This document shows positions 4,587 to 11,441 of a stretch of 11,441 nucleotides of DNA, piece by piece. Made by a program: the position numbers and the translations under genes. Below the pieces are notes generated by a model. That model was not told where the DNA came from. It searched no databases and was given only the letters and a program-made list of their open reading frames with translations. Origin of the DNA: a virus (Duplodnaviria > Heunggongvirae > Uroviricota > Caudoviricetes); IMG/VR virus record IMGVR_UViG_3300023487_000022. One strand, written 5' to 3'. Numbering within the stretch: position 1 is the stretch's first letter; each line of letters begins with the position of its first letter.

Positions 4587-5285
4587 TTACGGAACAGCGG
4601 TAATCAGATCGCAAATGCCTGTTTTAGTTAAATCACTATTCAGCTTCTGAAAATTGGCATTCAGCATTGCGGTATGTATTCGATTCTCAAGTTCAAAGAA
4701 GAGACCGATCTTGCCCTCTTTGGCTGCCACCTTCTTCCAAATATTCACCTGGTCATCTGCGATACGACTTGCGCAGGTGAACAAGAACGAACTCCCTCTG
4801 GGAAGGGATGTCGTGCTGTAGTATTCACCGTCAACTTCAATATACTTAGCTCGGAATGACTCCAGAGTTAGCTTTTTACCGCTCTCAGCCTGCTTTGTGT
4901 CTGCCTTGCTTGTCTTTTCCTGAACTTCAGGCTGTTTCTGCACAGGCTTTGGTGTCTCATTGACCACCGCAGTGCTGGCCGAACCATCCAAACTCTTGAG
5001 GCCATTAATTTGGATTAGATAAGCCAACTCCAGAGCCTTATCACCAGTGAGTTTTCCACGCATACTTACCCATTGACGCTGAACCGTCTTTAAGGCGTCT
5101 GCGTCCCCCGGGTTTGCTTTGAGTGCGTTGGAATAGGTAGAGCTAAGTTGTTCGTCTAATTTTGACAGGCGTTCGTTATCGCAGATTTTGTGTTCGATTT
5201 CTGCCGAAGCCTTTTGGCAGTCAAAGCTGGCTGCAAATACAGCCGGCGATGCCACCAACAATGATGCCAGTAGGATATTTTTCAT
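4587..5285 (-). CDS. Secreted protein with DUF1311 (LprI-like) N-terminal domain (232 aa)
   Basis: ATG at 5285 with GGAG upstream. Signal peptide MKNILLASLLVASPAVFA with an AXA-type cleavage site, followed by the Cys/Leu pattern FDCQKASAEIEHKICDNERLSKLDEQLSSTYSNALKA...QRQWVSMRG, which matches DUF1311 from memory. C-terminal domain unassigned. Confidence 0.78.
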   Translation of the reverse strand: MKNILLASLLVASPAVFAASFDCQKASAEIEHKICDNERLSKLDEQLSSTYSNALKANPGDADALKTVQRQWVSMRGKLTGDKALELAYLIQINGLKSLDGSASTAVVNETPKPVQKQPEVQEKTSKADTKQAESGKKLTLESFRAKYIEVDGEYYSTTSLPRGSSFLFTCASRIADDQVNIWKKVAAKEGKIGLFFELENRIHTAMLNANFQKLNSDLTKTGICDLITAVP

Positions 5286-5323
5286 ATTCACTCCATAAAT
5301 ATAAAAGCGCCTGACTATAGCAC

Positions 5324-5773: not shown

Positions 5774-6505
5774 TCAGCGGGGACTTAACAAAAGCGGAGA
5801 CTCGCTCGACAAGCCGGCCAGTGAACCAACATCCCCCCAATTCTGGTGTGTCAGCGCCCCGATACTTACCACTCCAGGCAGCACTTCTTTGTGGTTGTGG
5901 TAGTGCCCGGACAACAATAAACGGAAGCCGATATCTTTCAGTTCCTGTGCGTCGATGCCGACATCGGGCATGGTGGGGATCGCTTTGTTGATTGAGGTAT
6001 GTACAACAACATCATGGTTGTCACCATCCAGCCCGGAACGCAGCGTTTTGAGATCGCTGATAAGTTCTGCGTAGTTATTACGCCAGCTAATCAGATGGAC
6101 GGTTACGTCGCCCATTTTGATGGAATGAGGACGTTTGCCGCAGACGATTTCCACACCGATTGAGCGCAGAGAGGCTGCTGCATTGGCGCTGTATACGGAA
6201 TCGTTGGTTTCGAGGTCGTGGTTGCCAGCCAGCATTACCACCTTGAGACCCAACTCTTTGATGATCCACTCGTAAGTTTCGGTCACGAAATGCAGAACGG
6301 AAGGTGATATAGCACCGCGAACATGGAAGGTATCACCAGCTACCAGCATGTTCTTACAGCCAGCAGCTTTCATCGCTTTGGCCGCCTCCTTCGTAGCGTC
6401 CAGTTGGATCTCCAGCCGAGAGTTAAGCCCGTCAGCGTTTGTTGTCGCAAAAGCATCCCAACGATGATAATGGGGATCTGATATTACCCCGTATGGCAAT
6501 GTCAT
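5774..6505 (-). CDS. Calcineurin-like metallophosphoesterase (243 aa)
   Basis: ATG at 6505 with AAGGA upstream. Ordered motifs ISDPHYH, GDTFHVRG, GNHD and GHYHNH match the metallophosphatase signature (D-x-H, GD-x-x-D/H-R-G, GNH[DE], GH-x-H). Confidence 0.75.
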   Translation of the reverse strand: MTLPYGVISDPHYHRWDAFATTNADGLNSRLEIQLDATKEAAKAMKAAGCKNMLVAGDTFHVRGAISPSVLHFVTETYEWIIKELGLKVVMLAGNHDLETNDSVYSANAAASLRSIGVEIVCGKRPHSIKMGDVTVHLISWRNNYAELISDLKTLRSGLDGDNHDVVVHTSINKAIPTMPDVGIDAQELKDIGFRLLLSGHYHNHKEVLPGVVSIGALTHQNWGDVGSLAGLSSESPLLLSPR

Positions 6506-6848
6506 GTGTCTTTTCCTTTGTGGTTATTTTGATACAAATTCTAAGCGTGCATAAGAGGCGTACAACCCAGACAACACGGCACACAAAAGAATATAAAGGC
6601 ACATGATAATAACAAAAAAATAAGTAAGTAAATACCTATCAGATAGGGCAGCAACGATTTCTAAACGTCACAAGCAATTTTATGAGAGCAGTCATTTACT
6701 GATGACAAGAAATGAAAAAGGAGAACGGACGGTGAAGTTGTGAGATGACATTTACGGCGTTTGCGTGCGTCGTCTTCAAACGCATCCGTCGGCCACAGTT
6801 TCTGCTCTTGAATAAAATTCACTCATGCATTAATCCCTAAAGCTCTCA

Positions 6849-6875
6849 GTGTCTTTCTAAGACACCATATTTTAT
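6849..6875 (+). terminator. Hairpin GTGTCTT-TCT-AAGACAC followed by CATATTTTAT; candidate plus-strand rho-independent terminator
   Basis: Perfect 7 bp stem, 3 nt loop, T-rich tail on the plus strand only; lies just after a 31-codon plus-strand ORF (6745-6840). Confidence 0.45.
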
Positions 6876-6901
6876 GCCCGGTAAAAAGCATGAGTTTGCC
6901 T

Positions 6902-7546
6902 TTAAAACGTCTCTGAGGGCTTCTGACGCGCTCTGCTAATGTCTATTACCCCAGCTTTTGGACGAGGGTCTACAAGATTCAACTCTTCAGCACTGTGATA
7001 CTCCGTGTCGAACTCCCGATCGACATGGCGAATGTAAATGGCTGTCAGAAGGCTGTTATCATTCAGAAAGTGTCCGTAAGATTTGCGAATTACTTCGCCA
7101 ACCTTCTCAATCTTCTCTCCGCCCATGCAGAGATGGTTAAATCGGCTGTGTTTCCGCAGCATTTCATCCACCGGGCCTGAGTAGACCTTATCAACTCTCC
7201 CGAACCGGATGATATTTCCGGTATCAGCTTCAACCAGACAAACGAGTTTGCCAGGTTCGACACGATCTCGCCAAGTGACACCAGAGCGCAGTGTGTTGAA
7301 GTAGGGAGCATCCAATCCGATGATCGGTTTACGAAATGCTAGTAGTGGCACGTAACGTATGCAGCTGTTTAGGTGGAAATGCGCACCGGCGTCGTGGAGT
7401 TTAAGCCGGGTTTCGTTAATCGGGCATTTCGAAGCAATGCCGCAAAGGTCGCAGAGCAACTTCTGTTTGTTCAGACTAGTGTTTGATTCAATGGTGTAGG
7501 AGCCATCTTCAAGACGGCGAACCCAGCGCGTGCGTTTAAGATCCAT
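6902..7546 (-). CDS. Hypothetical protein (214 aa) with a CDLCGIASKC Cys cluster
   Basis: ORF track, ATG at 7546, weak RBS. No family recognised. Confidence 0.6.
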   Translation of the reverse strand: MDLKRTRWVRRLEDGSYTIESNTSLNKQKLLCDLCGIASKCPINETRLKLHDAGAHFHLNSCIRYVPLLAFRKPIIGLDAPYFNTLRSGVTWRDRVEPGKLVCLVEADTGNIIRFGRVDKVYSGPVDEMLRKHSRFNHLCMGGEKIEKVGEVIRKSYGHFLNDNSLLTAIYIRHVDREFDTEYHSAEELNLVDPRPKAGVIDISRARQKPSETF

Positions 7547-7645
7547 AATTCTTGTTCAAATAATTTTGTCCGGGGCAACGATAACGGATAAGGCGCACCG
7601 GAGTTTGCAAATGCCTGTTTACTTATTCACTTTATTCACAGGCCC

Positions 7646-7703
7646 GATCCAATATTTAGATCCCCAGAGAGATCCTACAGAAGATCAAAAGAGATCCCCG
7701 ATC
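7646..7703. promoter_or_regulatory. GATC (Dam site) cluster, 6 sites in 58 bp; origin-like element
   Basis: GATC at 7646, 7659, 7671, 7683, 7693 and 7700, next to an AT-rich segment and just upstream of iteron cluster 1; this resembles the arrangement at P1-type origins. Confidence 0.5.
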
Positions 7704-7744
7704 GTCTCCAGCGCTTGCGGTTACTGGCTTGAGAAGGGGTTACT

Positions 7745-7846
7745 ATCCACTATAGGGAGCAAAATAACCACTGTAGAGAGCATAATAACCGCTATGAAGA
7801 GCAAAACAACCTCTCTGGAGAGTAGTCGGTATCCACTGTAGTGAGT
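7745..7846 (+). repeat. Iteron cluster 1: 5 direct repeats, about 21 bp spacing, core A(A/T)CCACT(A/G)TAG(A/T)GAG
   Basis: Copies at 7745-7760, 7766-7781, 7787-7802, 7808-7823 (degenerate) and 7831-7846. Confidence 0.8.
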
Positions 7847-8127
7847 AGGAGACAATGTTTTAACTGGATAACTCCGAGCCTGTTTTTCTGCGGCAGATGG
7901 CTGATATTCTTGGAAATATTGTAAATTTTGCGTTGCGGCGTGTTTATTTCGATCACACATTATCCCCAGAAGGGGAGTGATGCCTGATTTTGTAATTATC
8001 TGATTTTTATACACAGGCCCGATCCAGTAATTCAGATCCCTGTTAGAACCAAAGAGAACCACAAAGACCCAAAGAGATCCCCGGCCCTTGCAAACCGTTG
8101 TGCCACATGGCTTTAGAGGTTATCGAT

Positions 8128-8249
8128 ATCCACTATAGTGAGAAGAACAACCACTATAGAGAGTAAATCAACCACTATGGAGAGTAGAAAAACCGCTGTA
8201 GGCGGTAGGATAACCACTGTGATGGGTGCTACTATCCACTGTAATCAGT
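8128..8249 (+). repeat. Iteron cluster 2: 6 direct repeats at 21-22 bp spacing, immediately upstream of repA
   Basis: Copies at 8128-8143, 8149-8164, 8170-8185, 8191-8206, 8212-8227 and 8234-8249. Confidence 0.82.
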
Positions 8250-8288
8250 AAAGGCACCCAAGCCGTCGAATAAAAAGAGACATTTGGA

Positions 8289-9344
8289 ATGAGCGTAAAC
8301 GACAATAAAAACATTGCGATAAGCGAAGCATTTTCCGAAACAGACAAAAAGACCGGCGAAGTTGTTACGTTAGTTCCTAACACCAACAACACAGTTCAGC
8401 CTGTTGCTCTGATGCGTCTTGGTCTCTTCGTTCCGACGCTGAAATCGACATCCAGGGGTAGAAAGGGGCAAATGGTCTCTATGGACGCCTCCGCTGAACT
8501 CAAACAGCTGTCTCTGGCCAAAGCCGAAGGGTACGAGGATATAAGGATTGCTGGTCTTCGTCTTGATATGGATAACGATTTCAAAACATGGGTGGGCATC
8601 ATCCACGCGTTCGCCAAGCACAAGGTTGTTGGTGACACCGTCACGTTGCCGTTCGTCGAGTTCGTCAGACTTTGTGGCATACCAACAGCCAGATCGTCCG
8701 CGAAGTTACGTAAGCGCCTGGACAGCTCTCTAAGTCGTATCGCCACAAACACCATCTCATTCCGCAGCAAAGGCTCTGAAGAGTATTACGTTACGCACCT
8801 TGTGCAGACGGCAAAGTACAGTACCAAGAATGACACGGTCGAACTGAAGGCCGATCCTAAGATTTTCGAACTTTACCAGTTCGACAAAAAGGTGCTTTTG
8901 CAACTTCGGGCCATCAACGAACTCTCCAGAAAGGAATCCGCGCAGGCGCTCTACACCTTCATTGAAAGTTTGCCACCAGACCCGGCGCCAATCTCATTGG
9001 CTCGCTTACGCGCCAGACTTAACTTAACCAGCCGCACCATTACCCAGAATGCGACAGTCAGGAAGGCGATGGAGCAGCTGCGAGAGATCGGCTATCTCGA
9101 TTACACTGAAGTGAAACGCGGCAGCTCGGTCTACTTCGTCATCCACTATAGACGGCCGAAGTTACGTTCGGCACTGCCGCCATCTATGGCTACGCCTGAA
9201 GAGCCAGAAGATATCTTGCCAGGTGATGATCCGGAGGACATTATCGATGTTGCCCCTGAAGAAAAAGACGGGGAAATGGTCATGTTGAGCAAGGAAGAAC
9301 TGGCGATTCTCGAAGAGCTGCGCAAGGCAAAGGCTCGCAAATAG
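8289..9344 (+). CDS. repA: Iteron-binding replication initiator RepA, RepFIB/P1 RepA family (351 aa)
   Basis: Product contains [57 protein letters not shown] and [10 protein letters not shown], which I recognise as conserved in P1 RepA and RepFIB RepA. Flanked on both sides by iterons. Confidence 0.9.
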
Positions 9345-9347
9345 CCC

Positions 9348-9947
9348 AACCACTGTAGAGAGTAAAAAGGCTCACTATCTACTGTAGTGAGCCTTTTTGT
9401 TTATCGGAAATGCAATATCCACTGTAGTGAGTAAAAGAAACCGAAGAATAACCACTGTAGGCAGTGCGCACAAATCGCGAAGTAAATGTTAGTGGTTGCA
9501 AACATAGATAAAACAAGGGCTGAGAGGTTAGCGGTCACTGGGTATCTCTGTTAAGTCTACTCTCTACAGCGGTTATCGTCGCTCTCCTCATTGTTGACTA
9601 TCCACTGTGAAGAGCAGAATTGGCTGACTTGACCTCTATCCACTGTAGTGAGTGGATATCCGTTTAAAACAGCGAAGATTTACTCTCCATAGTGGATATC
9701 CGCTGGAGGGGGCATTCCATCACTCTCTATAGTGGTTGTTTGTAGTCAGTGAACGCCTGTTTACTCACTACAGTGTATAGCGACCCCGATAATCACCAAT
9801 TTACTCACTACAGTGGATAGTTGATATCGTGGCAGAGGGTTTGCTCACTACAGTGGTTGGGGTGCATACCTGAAGGGTGTTCTACTCGCTACAGTGGTTA
9901 TGAGCCGGATTCACACGCGGTGAGCTGGCTACTCACCGCAGTGGATA
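9348..9947. repeat. Downstream iteron array, about 14 copies in both orientations (incA-like)
   Basis: Direct copies at 9348-9363, 9378-9393, 9417-9432, 9450-9465, 9598-9615 and 9638-9653; inverted copies at 9559-9576, 9682-9701, 9721-9738, 9763-9780, 9803-9820, 9843-9860, 9884-9901 and 9930-9947. Confidence 0.8.
9369..9402 (+). terminator. repA rho-independent terminator: GGCTCACTA-TCTACTG-TAGTGAGCC then TTTTTGTTT
   Basis: 9 bp stem beginning 25 nt after the repA stop, followed by a T-run; the stem is built from iteron-like sequence. Confidence 0.6.
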
Positions 9948-9953
9948 GTGTTA

Positions 9954-10166
9954 TCAGTGGATTTTCTTCAGCAGACCCCAGAGTGTCCCGGCCTTCGTTG
10001 CGAGCTTACCTGTTTCCGGATCGTACATGTGCCATTCACGTCGCTGGTGGACAATATACCCATCTTCACGTTCCAGTCGTTCCAGTACGCCGGACTGCTT
10101 GAACCCTTTGGCACGCCAGTAGCCGCTTGTTTTTTCGATTTCCAGACCTGTCAGTGTAACCGCCAT
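9954..10166 (-). CDS. Hypothetical small protein (70 aa), translationally coupled
   Basis: ATG at 10166..10164 overlaps the TGA of the upstream gene (TGATG); the track start at 10169 is a TTG. Product MAVTLTGLEIEKTSGYWRAKGF... Confidence 0.62.
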   Translation of the reverse strand: MAVTLTGLEIEKTSGYWRAKGFKQSGVLERLEREDGYIVHQRREWHMYDPETGKLATKAGTLWGLLKKIH

Positions 10167-10501
10167 CAACTAATCTCCTTGCAGTCATCGAAAAGGTAGC
10201 TGTCGTTCTTCGCGTGAACGCCGTATACATCACCCGATTTGTTGTAAACGAATCTATCTTTACCTACGCCAGATAGTTCGCCGTTACGTTTAGTGAGAAA
10301 CGGGGAAGACAGGACGCGATCATCGCGTACCACATAAAACTGTTCGCCACGGTCCACAACCATCGCGCCGTAATTAGCTTTAACGACGTTGCGGATCAGG
10401 CCGTTTTTCGCTTCGACCACAAACATTTCGCACTCATAGACATGTGTGTCCGCAAAGACGGGGAGAGTGAGCAGCGCCAGTACCAGGGCTGTTTTCTTCA
10501 T
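10166..10501 (-). CDS. Hypothetical exported protein with Sec signal peptide (111 aa)
   Basis: MKKTALVLALLTLPVFA then DTHVYEC, consistent with an AXA cleavage site. ATG at 10501 overlaps the stop of the upstream small ORF (ATGA). Confidence 0.65.
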   Translation of the reverse strand: MKKTALVLALLTLPVFADTHVYECEMFVVEAKNGLIRNVVKANYGAMVVDRGEQFYVVRDDRVLSSPFLTKRNGELSGVGKDRFVYNKSGDVYGVHAKNDSYLFDDCKEIS

Positions 10502-10677
10502 GCCACGACTCCTTTGAAAACGCCTAATGCTGAGTCGAAGACCAGTACTACGGCCAGCGCATTGATCATCACATCATTAACAGGCGCCAGCGCTTTACGG
10601 ATTGCCCCTGTGAAGATGCAGTCGAGCACAAAGGCTATCGAGATAATAAGTAACGTGATATCTAATAAAATTTTCAT
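10498..10677 (-). CDS. Candidate small hydrophobic peptide (59 aa), not in the supplied ORF track
   Basis: ATG at 10677, reading MKILLDITLLIISIAFVLDCIFTGAIRKALAPVNDVMINALAVVLVFDSALGVFKGVVA. Its stop overlaps the start of the 111 aa gene. RBS is weak, and a plus-strand ORF (10442-10693) overlaps it. Confidence 0.4.
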   Translation of the reverse strand: MKILLDITLLIISIAFVLDCIFTGAIRKALAPVNDVMINALAVVLVFDSALGVFKGVVA

Positions 10678-10716
10678 GATAGGTAAATGCTAACTTATAT
10701 ATTTTTGCTGTAAATA

Positions 10717-10992
10717 TCACTCAAAAGTGCTGATACCCAAAATGCGCTCAAGATGGGCCGCGTCTTCATCGCTTACCAGCATTGTGTCGTCGACGTACCA
10801 GCAGCTACCGTTGTGCCAACAAACACCGTCATCATCGATATAAATAGAATCCGCATCCATTCCTGTGTATTCAACTAGATTGCGTTCAATTGCCGCTTGA
10901 ATTTCTTCATCGTTCAGCCCGTCGCACTTGATCATGAACAACGGGTAAACGTCATAGTCGGTACTAGATGAAATGCGAACCAAAGTCTTCAT
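10717..10992 (-). CDS. Hypothetical small, very acidic protein (91 aa)
   Basis: ORF-track frame 10717..11055; start chosen at ATG 10992 with AAGGAG 7 nt upstream. About 20 D/E versus 5 K/R by hand count. Confidence 0.62.
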   Translation of the reverse strand: MKTLVRISSSTDYDVYPLFMIKCDGLNDEEIQAAIERNLVEYTGMDADSIYIDDDGVCWHNGSCWYVDDTMLVSDEDAAHLERILGISTFE

Positions 10993-11172
10993 GTGCTTTC
11001 TCCTTGTTGGTAAGTACTTATCTATCTTAATGCGCGCTATAAGGCGCACAATCATTGTGTTCAGGCTGGTGGAAAGAACTTCTCCAGCGTGTGGTTGATA
11101 GCCTTATCAATGTGCATCAGGTGCCAGACGACCATATCTTTGCTTCCAATGCCGCGAGTGTAGATGAAGTGG

Positions 11173-11389
11173 TCAACAAAAACTGGCCACCGAGTTAGAT
11201 TTTTTCCAGTATCGATTTTCCGATTCATTTGGGGGTAATCCACCGTTATATTCGTGCGGTCTTAGTGCGCTGTAATATCCAACGATATAGTCCGTTATGG
11301 CGTGAGCTGCCTCGCTGAAGCTTACGTAACCCACCACCGGCATCCATTCGTTCTTCAGACTCCTGAAGAAGCGTTCCATTGGGCTGTTG
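11173..11389 (-). pseudogene. C-terminal fragment of an IS3-family transposase (OrfB tail), truncated upstream
   Basis: Reads ...SVNSPMERFFRSLKNEW...YYSALRPHEYNGGLPPNESE, resembling the conserved IS3-family DDE-domain tail (DNAxxESFFxxLKxE ... RxHxxLGxxxPxEFE). An in-frame stop at 11390-11392 sits just upstream of the conserved motif, and no other frame continues the homology. Confidence 0.55.
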
Positions 11390-11441
11390 ACGCTCCTATG
11401 TCAAGAGCGGGCGATTGGCATATGTGAGATCTGATAAAATC

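What the first reader, a model, noticed from the sequence alone, without database searches (positions are those of the whole stretch)
9954..10992. Coupled operon of acidic protein, small hydrophobic peptide, exported protein and small protein, abutting the iteron array
Four minus-strand genes lie within 1.04 kb, and the last three are joined by overlapping stop/start codons (at 10498-10501 and 10164-10168). The products are a 91 aa very acidic protein, a 59 aa hydrophobic peptide, a 111 aa protein with a Sec signal peptide, and a 70 aa soluble protein. Mixed compartments with tight coupling are typical of toxin-immunity, exclusion or envelope-targeting modules. None is recognisable to me. The hydrophobic peptide is below the 60 aa threshold of the ORF track and rests only on coupling geometry.
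Basis: partly seen in the sequence, partly recalled or inferred. Interest (0 to 1): 0.6.

Follow-up and report, generated by a model that had tools for sequence, protein, structure and literature searches.

The report
Conserved phage-plasmid envelope gene cassette
Four real small genes sit beside the replication origin of an SSU5/pHCM2/pMT1-type phage-plasmid; three of them form a coupled unit (membrane peptide, exported beta-barrel, P1 Cra-like protein) whose function is unknown and whose relatives in E. coli LF82 are silent in broth and switched on inside macrophages.

Summary
All four genes, including the 59-codon one, are under purifying selection.

The window is an SSU5/pHCM2/pMT1-type phage-plasmid. 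About 790 PLSDB plasmids carry the block.

It is not one four-gene operon. g1 (the acidic protein) is separated from g2 by a 39-nt, nearly invariant spacer holding a promoter-like site and a dyad motif that recurs upstream of many genes in these phages. g2-g3-g4 form the coupled unit. In published RNA-seq of the relative Cyrano, g2-g4 are at the floor in LB and rise about 36-78-fold in macrophages, while g1 rises about 3-fold.

- g2 is a two-helix membrane hairpin.
- g3 is a Sec-exported, two-cysteine beta-barrel (AF2 pLDDT 87). It resembles periplasmic inhibitors such as PhiA, PliC and MliC in fold only, not in sequence.
- g4 is a homologue of P1 Cra, which has no known function and also occurs without g2/g3.

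S. Typhi pHCM2 carries an in-frame g2::g3 deletion, so the pair is dispensable for plasmid maintenance. A toxin-immunity role is disfavoured. An envelope-acting accessory role (exclusion or protection) is the best guess but is unproven.

The parts
10717..10992 (-). g1: 91-aa acidic cytoplasmic protein (phrog_2209). It has its own AAGGAG Shine-Dalgarno sequence. It is absent from most Klebsiella-lineage relatives.
11006..11025 (-). Dyad motif (ATAGATAAGTACTTACCAAC) upstream of g1. It is one copy of a motif that recurs in the intergenic regions of these phage-plasmids.
10678..10716 (-). Near-invariant g1-g2 spacer. It holds a sigma-70-like TTTACA (10709-10714) - 16 nt - TAGCAT (10687-10692), which ends 9 nt before the g2 ATG, and the motif ATAAGTT-N6-TACCTATC (10678-10698).
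10498..10677 (-). g2: 59-aa membrane hairpin with two hydrophobic segments joined by a basic R/K-K-A-[LF]-x-P loop (phrog_2535). It has no Shine-Dalgarno sequence, and its stop codon overlaps the g3 start (ATGA).
10166..10501 (-). g3: 111-aa exported protein. Its signal peptide covers residues 1-17 (10451-10501). The mature domain is an all-beta barrel of about 94 aa with invariant Cys24 and Cys107 (phrog_2077).
9954..10166 (-). g4: 70-aa basic protein and homologue of phage P1 Cra (phrog_804), with the invariant motif GYWRAKGF. Its start codon overlaps the g3 stop (TGATG).
9917..9939 (-). Conserved GC-rich hairpin 14 nt after the g4 stop. It is formed by the last iteron and a partial inverted copy of it. 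dG is -17 to -21 kcal/mol and no U tract follows.
9347..9948 (.). Iteron array downstream of repA, lying between the convergent repA and g4.
8289..9344 (+). repA (Rep3-type initiator), convergent with g4.

Best explanation
**What is shown.** The locus is a conserved accessory block of SSU5/pHCM2/pMT1-type phage-plasmids, lying between the recombination/SPFH gene cluster and the replicon. It consists of g1 plus a separately regulated, translationally coupled unit g2-g3-g4. All four genes are under purifying selection. In the relative Cyrano, the g2-g4 homologues are co-regulated: they are off in stationary LB and among the most strongly induced plasmid genes inside macrophages. g3 is predicted with high confidence to be a small all-beta barrel behind a signal peptide. 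g4 belongs to the P1 Cra family.

**What is inferred.**
- Transcription of g2-g4 starts at the promoter-like site in the g1-g2 spacer. The leader would be only a few nucleotides long, which would explain why g2 lacks a Shine-Dalgarno sequence.
- The dyad motif in the spacer, shared with many other genes of the phage, is where a phage regulator keeps the unit silent during quiet lysogeny.
- g2 inserts in the inner membrane as a helical hairpin with a cytoplasmic basic loop.
- g3 is exported by Sec, closed by a Cys24-Cys107 disulfide, and acts in the periplasm together with g2. It would work as a binding or inhibitor protein: blocking an incoming phage's entry machinery, or a cell-wall-degrading enzyme. 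That makes the pair an exclusion or envelope-protection function switched on under stress or induction.
- g4 (Cra) is a separable cytoplasmic small basic protein whose role is unknown. It is found next to plasmid-maintenance sites both here (iterons) and in P1 (lox-cre).
For: **Family and conservation**
- The block is present in 787 PLSDB plasmids and 12 phage records, all SSU5-like.
- The order g1/g2/g3/g4/iterons/rep is retained in a distant lineage where g3 is only about 33% identical, and the ATGA overlap is retained too.
- Of 78 IMG/VR loci, 72 have g2, g3 and g4 together.

**Coding status**
- dN/dS values.

**Separate unit**
- The spacer is nearly invariant across lineages whose coding DNA is 68-75% identical.
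- A promoter-like site lies in the spacer.
- g2 lacks a Shine-Dalgarno sequence.
- Cyrano RNA-seq, log2(fpkm+5), LB against 6 h in macrophages: g2 2.3 to 8.6, g3 2.5 to 8.4, g4 3.7 to 8.9, but g1 3.2 to 5.0. repA stays flat. These genes rank 2nd, about 5th and about 9th of 123 (PMC9928086 S1 Table).

**Dyad motif**
- 35 matches against 4.2 expected by chance in a 36-kb stretch of Cyrano.
- All 11 distinct sites are intergenic, although only 17% of that DNA is intergenic.
- In the window there are 9 matches against 1.2 expected.

**g3**
- AF2 pLDDT 86.9, about 93 for the mature part.
- BFVD finds uncharacterised secreted or lipoproteins of other phages.
- The two cysteines are invariant in all family members down to 26% identity.
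- In an unrelated phage group, a g3-like gene is coupled to a different 39-aa transmembrane peptide.

**g4**
- phrog_804 at 1e-33; 41% identity to P1 Cra.
Against: - No experiment bears on function.
- A profile-profile comparison with MliC/PliC is negative (probability 0.3%).
- Classical exclusion genes are expressed in the lysogen, whereas this unit is silent in LB-grown Cyrano lysogens.
- The expression data come from a homologue that is 66-90% identical at the protein level, not from this plasmid. They also rest on one dataset, in which toxin-antitoxin and SOS-type genes rise too.
- The promoter geometry is not kept in the distant lineage: the spacer there is 14 nt, and a leader with GGAG is present.
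- S. Typhi pHCM2 has lost functional g2 and g3.
- The g4 model is poor (pLDDT 62) and matches nothing.
Confidence: 0.35

Rival explanations
1. Early lytic (induction) genes. On this reading g2-g4 belong to the phage's repressor-controlled early regulon. They act during the lytic cycle, for example by conditioning the envelope or timing lysis (a holin/antiholin-like membrane peptide with a periplasmic partner), and do not benefit the lysogen.
For: - The same dyad motif precedes many early-region genes and the holin gene.
- The unit is silent in LB and rises in macrophages, described in the paper as a genotoxic environment for LF82, together with the gene next to the repressor, CYRAN_46.
- Cyrano is inducible by ciprofloxacin.
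- g2 has the size and two-segment layout of small holins.
Against: - The recognised lysis cassette (holin, endolysin, Rz/Rz1) lies elsewhere.
- Replication and structural genes stay low in macrophages, and no virions were produced there.
- Y. pestis pMT1 keeps the block intact.
Confidence: 0.25
2. Replicon-linked function. Here transcription of g2-g4 runs into the iteron array, or the basic Cra-like g4 protein binds at or near it. Either would modulate RepA handcuffing and so plasmid copy number under stress.
For: - g4 ends 5 nt from the last iteron, with no canonical terminator; only a hairpin without a U tract follows.
- The position next to rep is kept in all lineages.
- In P1, cra also sits next to a maintenance site, lox-cre.
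- A 3.8-kb g1-g4 + iterons + repA segment occurs as a unit in an E. coli chromosome.
Against: - SSU5-like genomes are collinear throughout, so adjacency may be only inherited synteny.
- repA mRNA is flat while g2-g4 vary about 36-78-fold.
- This reading does not explain the membrane and periplasmic location of g2 and g3.
- pHCM2 replicates with g2::g3 deleted and with a 3-aa deletion in g4.
- No DNA-binding fold was detected in g4.
Confidence: 0.12
3. Toxin-immunity or addiction module. On this reading g2 is a small membrane-damaging toxin, like type I toxins or small bacteriocin/holin-like peptides, and g3 and/or g4 neutralise it.
For: - g2 is a small hydrophobic peptide.
- Its translation is tightly coupled to the downstream genes.
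- The block lies on a low-copy plasmid that carries several toxin-antitoxin systems.
Against: - PADLOC gave only one weak hit (g2 to typeIV_Cas5, E 0.0013), and Pfam and NCBIfam gave none.
- No antisense-RNA family was found.
- Known toxin-antitoxin pairs of Cyrano are highly expressed in LB, whereas this unit is at the floor.
- A periplasmic protein is an odd antidote for a cytoplasmically inserted peptide.
- g2 evolves faster than g3 and g4, but all are constrained.
Confidence: 0.08
4. Unrelated genes. The four genes would then be small phage genes that happen to be packed together, with compact coupling typical of phage genomes, and would not form a functional module.
For: - g4 occurs alone in P1-like phages and in a Pantoea contig.
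- g1 is missing from most Klebsiella-lineage elements.
- g3-like genes occur without g4.
- Overlapping stop/start codons are common in phages (general knowledge).
Against: - g2 and g3 always travel together in SSU5-like elements.
- The overlap is kept at 33% protein identity.
- The three genes are co-regulated in Cyrano.
- A g3-like gene is again coupled to a tiny transmembrane peptide in a different phage group.
Confidence: 0.2

Closest known systems
Phage P1 Cra ('cre-associated' ORF between loxP and cre; phrog_804)
   Same: g4 is a sequence homologue. It has the same length (70 against 73 aa), 41% identity, the shared invariant motif GYWRAKGF and a shared C-terminal LLKxI. Both are basic, and both are encoded next to a plasmid-maintenance site.
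   Different: There is no cre or lox here. g4 is the last gene of a coupled unit with a membrane peptide and an exported protein. P1 Cra itself has no demonstrated function, so the homology transfers a name and no mechanism.
Periplasmic proteinaceous inhibitors of cell-wall hydrolases (PliC/MliC, Brucella PhiA, Neisseria ACP)
   Different: No sequence relationship was found: hhalign probability is 0.3%, there is no Pfam MliC hit, and the SxSGAxY and YxxxTKG loops are absent. The same barrel is also used by unrelated ligand binders (Cap15, YceI). g3 is not a lipoprotein. Inhibition has not been tested.
Phage superinfection-exclusion pairs acting at the envelope (T4 Imm + Sp; P1 Sim) - comparison from general knowledge
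   Same: Both combine a small inner-membrane protein with a signal-peptide-bearing periplasmic protein, encoded by a phage and dispensable for its maintenance.
   Different: There is no sequence or fold similarity. The genes here are translationally coupled and linked to a Cra-like gene. The Cyrano homologues are not expressed in LB-grown lysogens.
SSU5 genes SSU5_065-068, Cyrano CYRAN_59-62 and the homologous genes of Y. pestis pMT1
   Same: These are direct orthologues (59-100% protein identity) in the same order and the same position next to repA.
   Different: In this window the upstream genes (the SSU5_063/064 homologues) have been replaced by an IS remnant. In the 99.9% identical plasmid NZ_CP067400 a type I restriction-modification island lies further upstream.

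Membership tests
P1 Cra family (phrog_804) | Significant sequence similarity over the whole length of about 70 aa | tested here: met
   phrog_804 E 9.7e-34 over residues 1-70. tblastn to P1, P7, SJ46 and RCS47 cra gives 40-41% identity over 68 aa, E about 1e-4. The alignment has invariant GYWRAKGF.
P1 Cra family (phrog_804) | Location between lox and cre ('cre-associated') | tested here: not met
   No recombinase gene or lox site is adjacent. g4 is followed by the iterons and repA. In a Pantoea contig a Cra-like gene lies next to umuDC.
MliC/PliC lysozyme inhibitors | Small periplasmic 8-stranded beta-barrel | tested here: met
MliC/PliC lysozyme inhibitors | Family sequence signature (Pfam MliC; loops SxSGAxY and YxxxTKG) | tested here: not met
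   No Pfam hit at E <= 0.1. hhalign of the g3 alignment against an MliC/PliC alignment gives probability 0.3%. The motifs are absent from the invariant columns.
MliC/PliC lysozyme inhibitors | Inhibits lysozyme | not testable with these tools
   This needs purified g3 and an enzyme assay.
Toxin-antitoxin or known defence systems | A component matching a known toxin, antitoxin or defence profile, or an antisense RNA | tested here: not met
   PADLOC gave only one weak hit (g2 to typeIV_Cas5, E 0.0013). Pfam and NCBIfam gave none. Rfam gave nothing relevant.
Phage lysis cassette (holin / antiholin) | Small protein with two or more transmembrane segments, encoded next to an endolysin and spanins | tested here: not met
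   g2 has two hydrophobic segments. The holin, endolysin and Rz/Rz1 genes of the family lie about 30 kb away (CYRAN_22-25).
Superinfection-exclusion genes | Expressed in the lysogen | tested here: inconclusive
   The Cyrano homologues are at the detection floor in stationary LB, low in cell-culture medium and high in macrophages. There are no data for this plasmid or for exponential growth.
Superinfection-exclusion genes | Blocks infection by incoming phage | not testable with these tools
   This needs plating assays on strains with and without g2-g3.
SSU5/pHCM2/pMT1-type phage-plasmid backbone | Collinear DNA homology, including repA with flanking iterons and the neighbouring genes | tested here: met
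   Window 5811-11165 is 89-91% identical to SSU5. 307 plasmids were found by megablast and 787 by blastn, nearly all 100-120 kb, non-mobilizable and typed IncFIB.

The most novel reading that the evidence does not exclude
g2-g3 would be a new, stress-induced envelope-protection system carried by phage-plasmids of enteric pathogens. A membrane-peptide-assisted periplasmic barrel, unrelated in sequence to PliC/MliC, would neutralise host lysozyme or another muralytic or entry enzyme. It would be switched on inside macrophages from a phage-wide operator-controlled promoter. Cra would be its co-expressed cytoplasmic partner, giving the long-unexplained P1 Cra family its first functional context.
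Probability: 0.12. Interest if true: 0.7.

Novelty: new variant of a known kind. Interest (0 to 1): 0.4.

Why it matters
The cassette is present in roughly 800 sequenced plasmids of Escherichia, Klebsiella, Enterobacter, Salmonella, Citrobacter, Cronobacter and Yersinia pestis (pMT1). Every gene in it is annotated 'hypothetical'.

If the g2/g3 pair acts on the envelope, it would be a new protein family for phage exclusion or for resistance to wall-degrading enzymes. Its strong induction inside macrophages in an adherent-invasive E. coli would link a phage-plasmid to intracellular survival.

The work also gives a concrete handle on two open points. One is what P1 Cra-type proteins do. The other is how SSU5-type phage-plasmids regulate their early genes, through the recurrent dyad motif. 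If it turns out to be just another set of small early phage genes, the finding is ordinary.

Tried and rejected
**Profile and sequence searches**
- Pfam and NCBIfam profile scans of all four proteins gave no hit; PADLOC gave only one weak hit, g2 to typeIV_Cas5 at E 0.0013.
- Sequence-profile searches of the PDB for g1, g3 and g4 gave nothing significant.
- Word-indexed homologue searches returned only SSU5-like relatives.
- A full HMMER profile search for g3 found only 25 clusters at E <= 1e-3 (21 at E <= 1e-5) among 1.84 billion representatives, and none is annotated.

**The idea that g3 is a diverged MliC/PliC**
- The profile-profile comparison rejected it at sequence level.

**Structure**
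- The AFDB Foldseek library was unavailable.

**Collection scans**
- Scanning IMG/VR for the 14-mer of the spacer motif returned mostly chance matches and was not informative.
- The broad g3 alignment was too divergent for the search for related loci, and P0066 found no viral locus.
- The Cra-alignment scan returned only close relatives in its top 80.

**RNA and terminators**
- Rfam gave no relevant RNA family.
- No canonical intrinsic terminator lies after g4.

**Literature**
- No function is reported for P1 cra.
- Nothing was found on these SSU5 genes or on guessed pMT1 locus tags.
- A 2026 preprint on phage-plasmid copy number could not be opened.

**Data treated as unreliable**
- The frameshifted E. 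albertii copy (L007) may reflect assembly errors, so I did not use it as evidence.
Full report
**1. What is in the sequence**

| Gene | Coordinates | Length | Properties |
|---|---|---|---|
| g1 | 10717-10992 | 91 aa | pI 4.05; 20 acidic against 5 basic residues |
| g2 | 10498-10677 | 59 aa | GRAVY 1.64; two hydrophobic stretches around a basic loop |
| g3 | 10166-10501 | 111 aa | MKK + hydrophobic core + VFA|DT |
| g4 | 9954-10166 | 70 aa | pI 9.4 |

- g2/g3 overlap as ATGA at 10498-10501, and g3/g4 as TGATG at 10164-10168.
- g1, g3 and g4 each have a good Shine-Dalgarno sequence. g2 has none.
- The iteron array downstream of repA (8289-9344, + strand) ends at 9928-9948, 5 nt from the g4 stop codon.

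**2. Where the window comes from**

The region is 99.9% identical to E. coli plasmids such as NZ_CP067400 and 89% identical to Salmonella phage SSU5. Homologous blocks occur in 307 (megablast) to 787 (blastn) PLSDB plasmids. Nearly all are about 100-120 kb, non-mobilizable and typed IncFIB. They come from Klebsiella, Escherichia, Enterobacter, Yersinia pestis (pMT1), Salmonella (pHCM2), Citrobacter and Cronobacter.

So this is the well-known SSU5-type phage-plasmid family. The four genes are SSU5_065-068 and CYRAN_59-62.

Homology to SSU5 stops at window position 11165. Beyond that lies an IS3-family transposase remnant. In the identical plasmid a type I restriction-modification island lies further upstream.

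**3. Are the genes real?**

- Across nine to ten lineages, Nei-Gojobori dN/dS against the window is 0.07-0.09 (g1), 0.23-0.43 (g2), 0.15-0.32 (g3) and 0.04-0.15 (g4).
- Variable alignment columns fall mostly on third codon positions. For g2 the counts are 32, 23 and 50 for positions 1, 2 and 3.
- g2 is a 59-codon ORF with the ATGA overlap in all ten close lineages examined.
- In a much more distant lineage, g2 is a 49-codon hairpin with the same K-K-A-[LF]-x-P loop and the same ATGA overlap.
- All four match PHROG families labelled 'unknown function': 2209, 2535, 2077 and 804, with E from 1e-33 to 1e-63.

The 59-aa gene therefore no longer rests on geometry alone. Its translation has still not been shown.

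**4. Not a four-gene operon**

The 39-nt g1-g2 spacer is almost invariant (TTTACA-N16/17-TAG[C/T]AT-N9-ATG) in lineages whose coding DNA is only 68-75% identical. The consensus scan calls it a sigma-70-like promoter. Its -10 element ends 9 nt before the g2 ATG. A transcript starting there would therefore have almost no leader, which fits the missing Shine-Dalgarno sequence. That last step is inference.

Independent support comes from published RNA-seq of E. coli LF82, which carries the SSU5-like phage-plasmid Cyrano (PMC9928086, S1 Table). Values are log2(fpkm+5), two replicates each.

| Gene | Stationary LB | THP-1 macrophages, 6 h |
|---|---|---|
| g1 homologue | 2.85 / 3.5 | 4.84 / 5.07 |
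| g2 homologue | 2.32 / 2.32 (floor) | 8.77 / 8.44 |
| g3 homologue | 2.77 / 2.32 | 8.28 / 8.6 |
| g4 homologue | 3.76 / 3.72 | 8.83 / 9.02 |
| repA | about 7 | about 8.3 |

- The three coupled genes move together and step up relative to g1.
- They rank about 2nd, 5th and 9th of 123 plasmid genes for induction in macrophages.
- Most replication and structural genes stay low.
- The authors did not discuss these genes.

**5. A phage-wide regulatory motif**

The conserved part of the spacer is one copy of a dyad motif, ATAAGTA-N(0-6)-TACTTAT(C).

- In 36 kb of Cyrano, a loose pattern gives 35 matches against 4.2 +/- 2.8 in shuffles.
- These collapse to 11 sites. All 11 are intergenic, although only 17% of the DNA is intergenic. 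Each lies 9-145 nt upstream of a gene, except one just after the end of CYRAN_39 (next gene on that strand 1231 nt away). The genes include the homologues of g1 and g2.
- The window has three sites: 6620-6639, 10679-10698 and 11006-11025. That is 9 matches against 1.2 expected.

I read this as the binding site of a phage regulator, analogous to the scattered C1 operators of P1. That reading comes from my own knowledge and is untested. It would explain silence in LB and release under stress.

**6. The proteins**

*g3*
- The family is very small. A full HMMER profile search of 1.84 billion representative proteins found 25 clusters at E <= 1e-3.
- All full-length members are about 111-119 aa (one is annotated at 155 aa from an upstream start), with a signal peptide and invariant Cys24, Phe55, Ser66-Pro67 and Cys107.
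- AlphaFold2 gives a confident all-beta model: mean pLDDT 86.9, about 93 for the mature part.
- BFVD finds uncharacterised secreted or lipoproteins of other phages (E down to 2.5e-6, TM about 0.75).
- A profile-profile test against MliC/PliC is negative (probability 0.3%).
- So g3 has an inhibitor-like or binder-like fold, but it is not a member of that family.

*g4*
- It is homologous to P1 Cra.
- Cra is only an ORF between loxP and cre, with no assigned function.
- The g4 model is poor and matches nothing.

*g1*
- It has no detectable relatives outside SSU5-like elements and no match among solved structures.

**7. Co-occurrence**

- In 78 IMG/VR contigs with a close g4 and enough flanking DNA, 55 carry all four genes, 17 lack g1 only and 6 show other patterns.
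- A distant lineage keeps the order g1/g2/g3/g4/iterons/rep. It comprises IMG/VR contigs of about 80-110 kb and the Enterobacter sp. CP102 plasmid, and its g3 is about 33% identical.
- g4-type genes occur without g2/g3 in P1, P7 and relatives, and next to umuDC in a Pantoea contig.
- A g3-like gene in a different phage group has no Cra. There it is followed, with overlap, by an unrelated 39-aa transmembrane peptide.

The stable functional pair therefore seems to be 'barrel plus tiny membrane peptide'. Cra is a separable companion.

**8. Dispensability**

S. Typhi pHCM2 carries an in-frame deletion that fuses g2 residues 1-38 to g3 residues 48-111, through a shared GAMV coding stretch. This removes the second membrane segment, the signal peptide and Cys24. 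The same plasmid has a 3-aa deletion in g4. The fused protein is recorded on at least 1000 contigs. The pair is therefore not needed for plasmid replication or maintenance.

**9. Interpretation**

The best-supported reading is an accessory, envelope-directed unit of the phage-plasmid. Its parts would be a membrane hairpin and a disulfide-closed periplasmic barrel acting together, probably by binding and blocking something in the periplasm, co-expressed with a Cra-family protein. The unit would be held silent in quiet lysogeny and switched on under stress. I put this at about 0.35.

Rivals and their approximate weights:
- an early lytic function: 0.25;
- unrelated small genes packed together: 0.2;
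- modulation of the adjacent replicon, by read-through or by Cra binding: 0.12;
- a toxin-immunity module: 0.08.

The toxin-immunity idea has no profile support and does not fit the expression pattern of the known toxin-antitoxin pairs on the same plasmid.

**10. Novelty and value**

The genes are already in the databases as hypothetical proteins, and g4 is already labelled Cra-like, so the discovery of the ORFs is not new. Four things appear not to have been described:
- the split into g1 plus a regulated g2-g4 unit;
- the phage-wide dyad motif;
- the barrel fold of g3;
- the macrophage induction of the unit.

This is a moderately interesting lead in a widespread element of enteric pathogens. 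It is not a demonstrated new system.

Noticed in passing
window 6620-6639, 10679-10698, 11006-11025; L144 (Cyrano 26000-62000), 11 sites: A dyad motif, ATAAGTA-N(0-6)-TACTTAT(C), recurs in SSU5-type phage-plasmids. In Cyrano it gives 35 matches against 4.2 expected, and all 11 distinct sites are intergenic and lie upstream of genes. It is a candidate operator of a phage regulator. I found no description of it in the papers searched.
   Followed up: partly
window 9917-9939 (minus strand): A conserved GC-rich hairpin lies directly after the g4 stop codon. It is made of the last iteron plus a partial inverted copy, with dG of -17 to -21 kcal/mol. One Citrobacter lineage keeps the hairpin with a different pairing register. 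No U tract follows. It could be an unconventional terminator shielding the iterons, or a RepA-dimer site.
   Followed up: partly
L010 3423-3728 (S. Typhi pHCM2): pHCM2 carries an in-frame g2::g3 fusion (101 aa). It arose by deletion between two short stretches that both encode GAMV. The product is recorded on at least 1000 contigs. g4 in the same plasmid has a 3-aa deletion.
   Followed up: yes
L148 3018-6800 (E. coli chromosome CP043541, near purH and an rrn leader): A 3.8-kb segment comprising g1-g4, both iteron arrays and repA is 97% identical to Cyrano and sits in a 5.57-Mb E. coli chromosome record. It could be a real integration of the mini-replicon, an engineered strain or a misassembly.
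   Followed up: partly
window 11166-11441: Homology to SSU5 ends at 11165. An IS3-family transposase C-terminal fragment (11173-11379, minus strand) replaces the upstream SSU5_063/064 genes. In the 99.9% identical plasmid NZ_CP067400, a type I restriction-modification system lies just beyond it.
   Followed up: partly
window 4587-5291 (minus strand): A second exported protein of 234 aa has a Pfam LprI ('lysozyme inhibitor LprI') N-terminal domain (E 2.7e-5). A phage RB49 protein with the same N-terminal domain was among the structural matches of g3 (BFVD, TM 0.48).
   Followed up: no
L245 526-747 (Candidatus Pantoea borealis contig): A third kind of Cra-like gene (73 aa, 39-46% identical to g4 and to P1 Cra) stands alone. 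It is divergent from a umuD-umuC pair.
   Followed up: partly
L230 (Catenulispora yoronensis, 704-bp contig); L233 (Acinetobacter idrijaensis, 399-bp contig): Tiny contigs in genome assemblies of unrelated bacteria carry enterobacterial g3-g4 (58% and 79% identical to the window) or P1 cra (96% identical). These are most likely contamination in those assemblies.
   Followed up: no
L020-L023 4001-4476: In an unrelated group of viral contigs, a distant g3 homologue is followed, with an overlapping stop/start, by a 39-aa glycine-zipper-like transmembrane peptide. In SSU5-like elements the membrane hairpin precedes g3 instead.
   Followed up: partly
PLSDB record NZ_CP155713 67963-68298 (Klebsiella pneumoniae plasmid): A very distant g3-like ORF (22% identity, E 6e-4) lies at a different position in a 110-kb plasmid. 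It may be a paralogue or another lineage.
   Followed up: no
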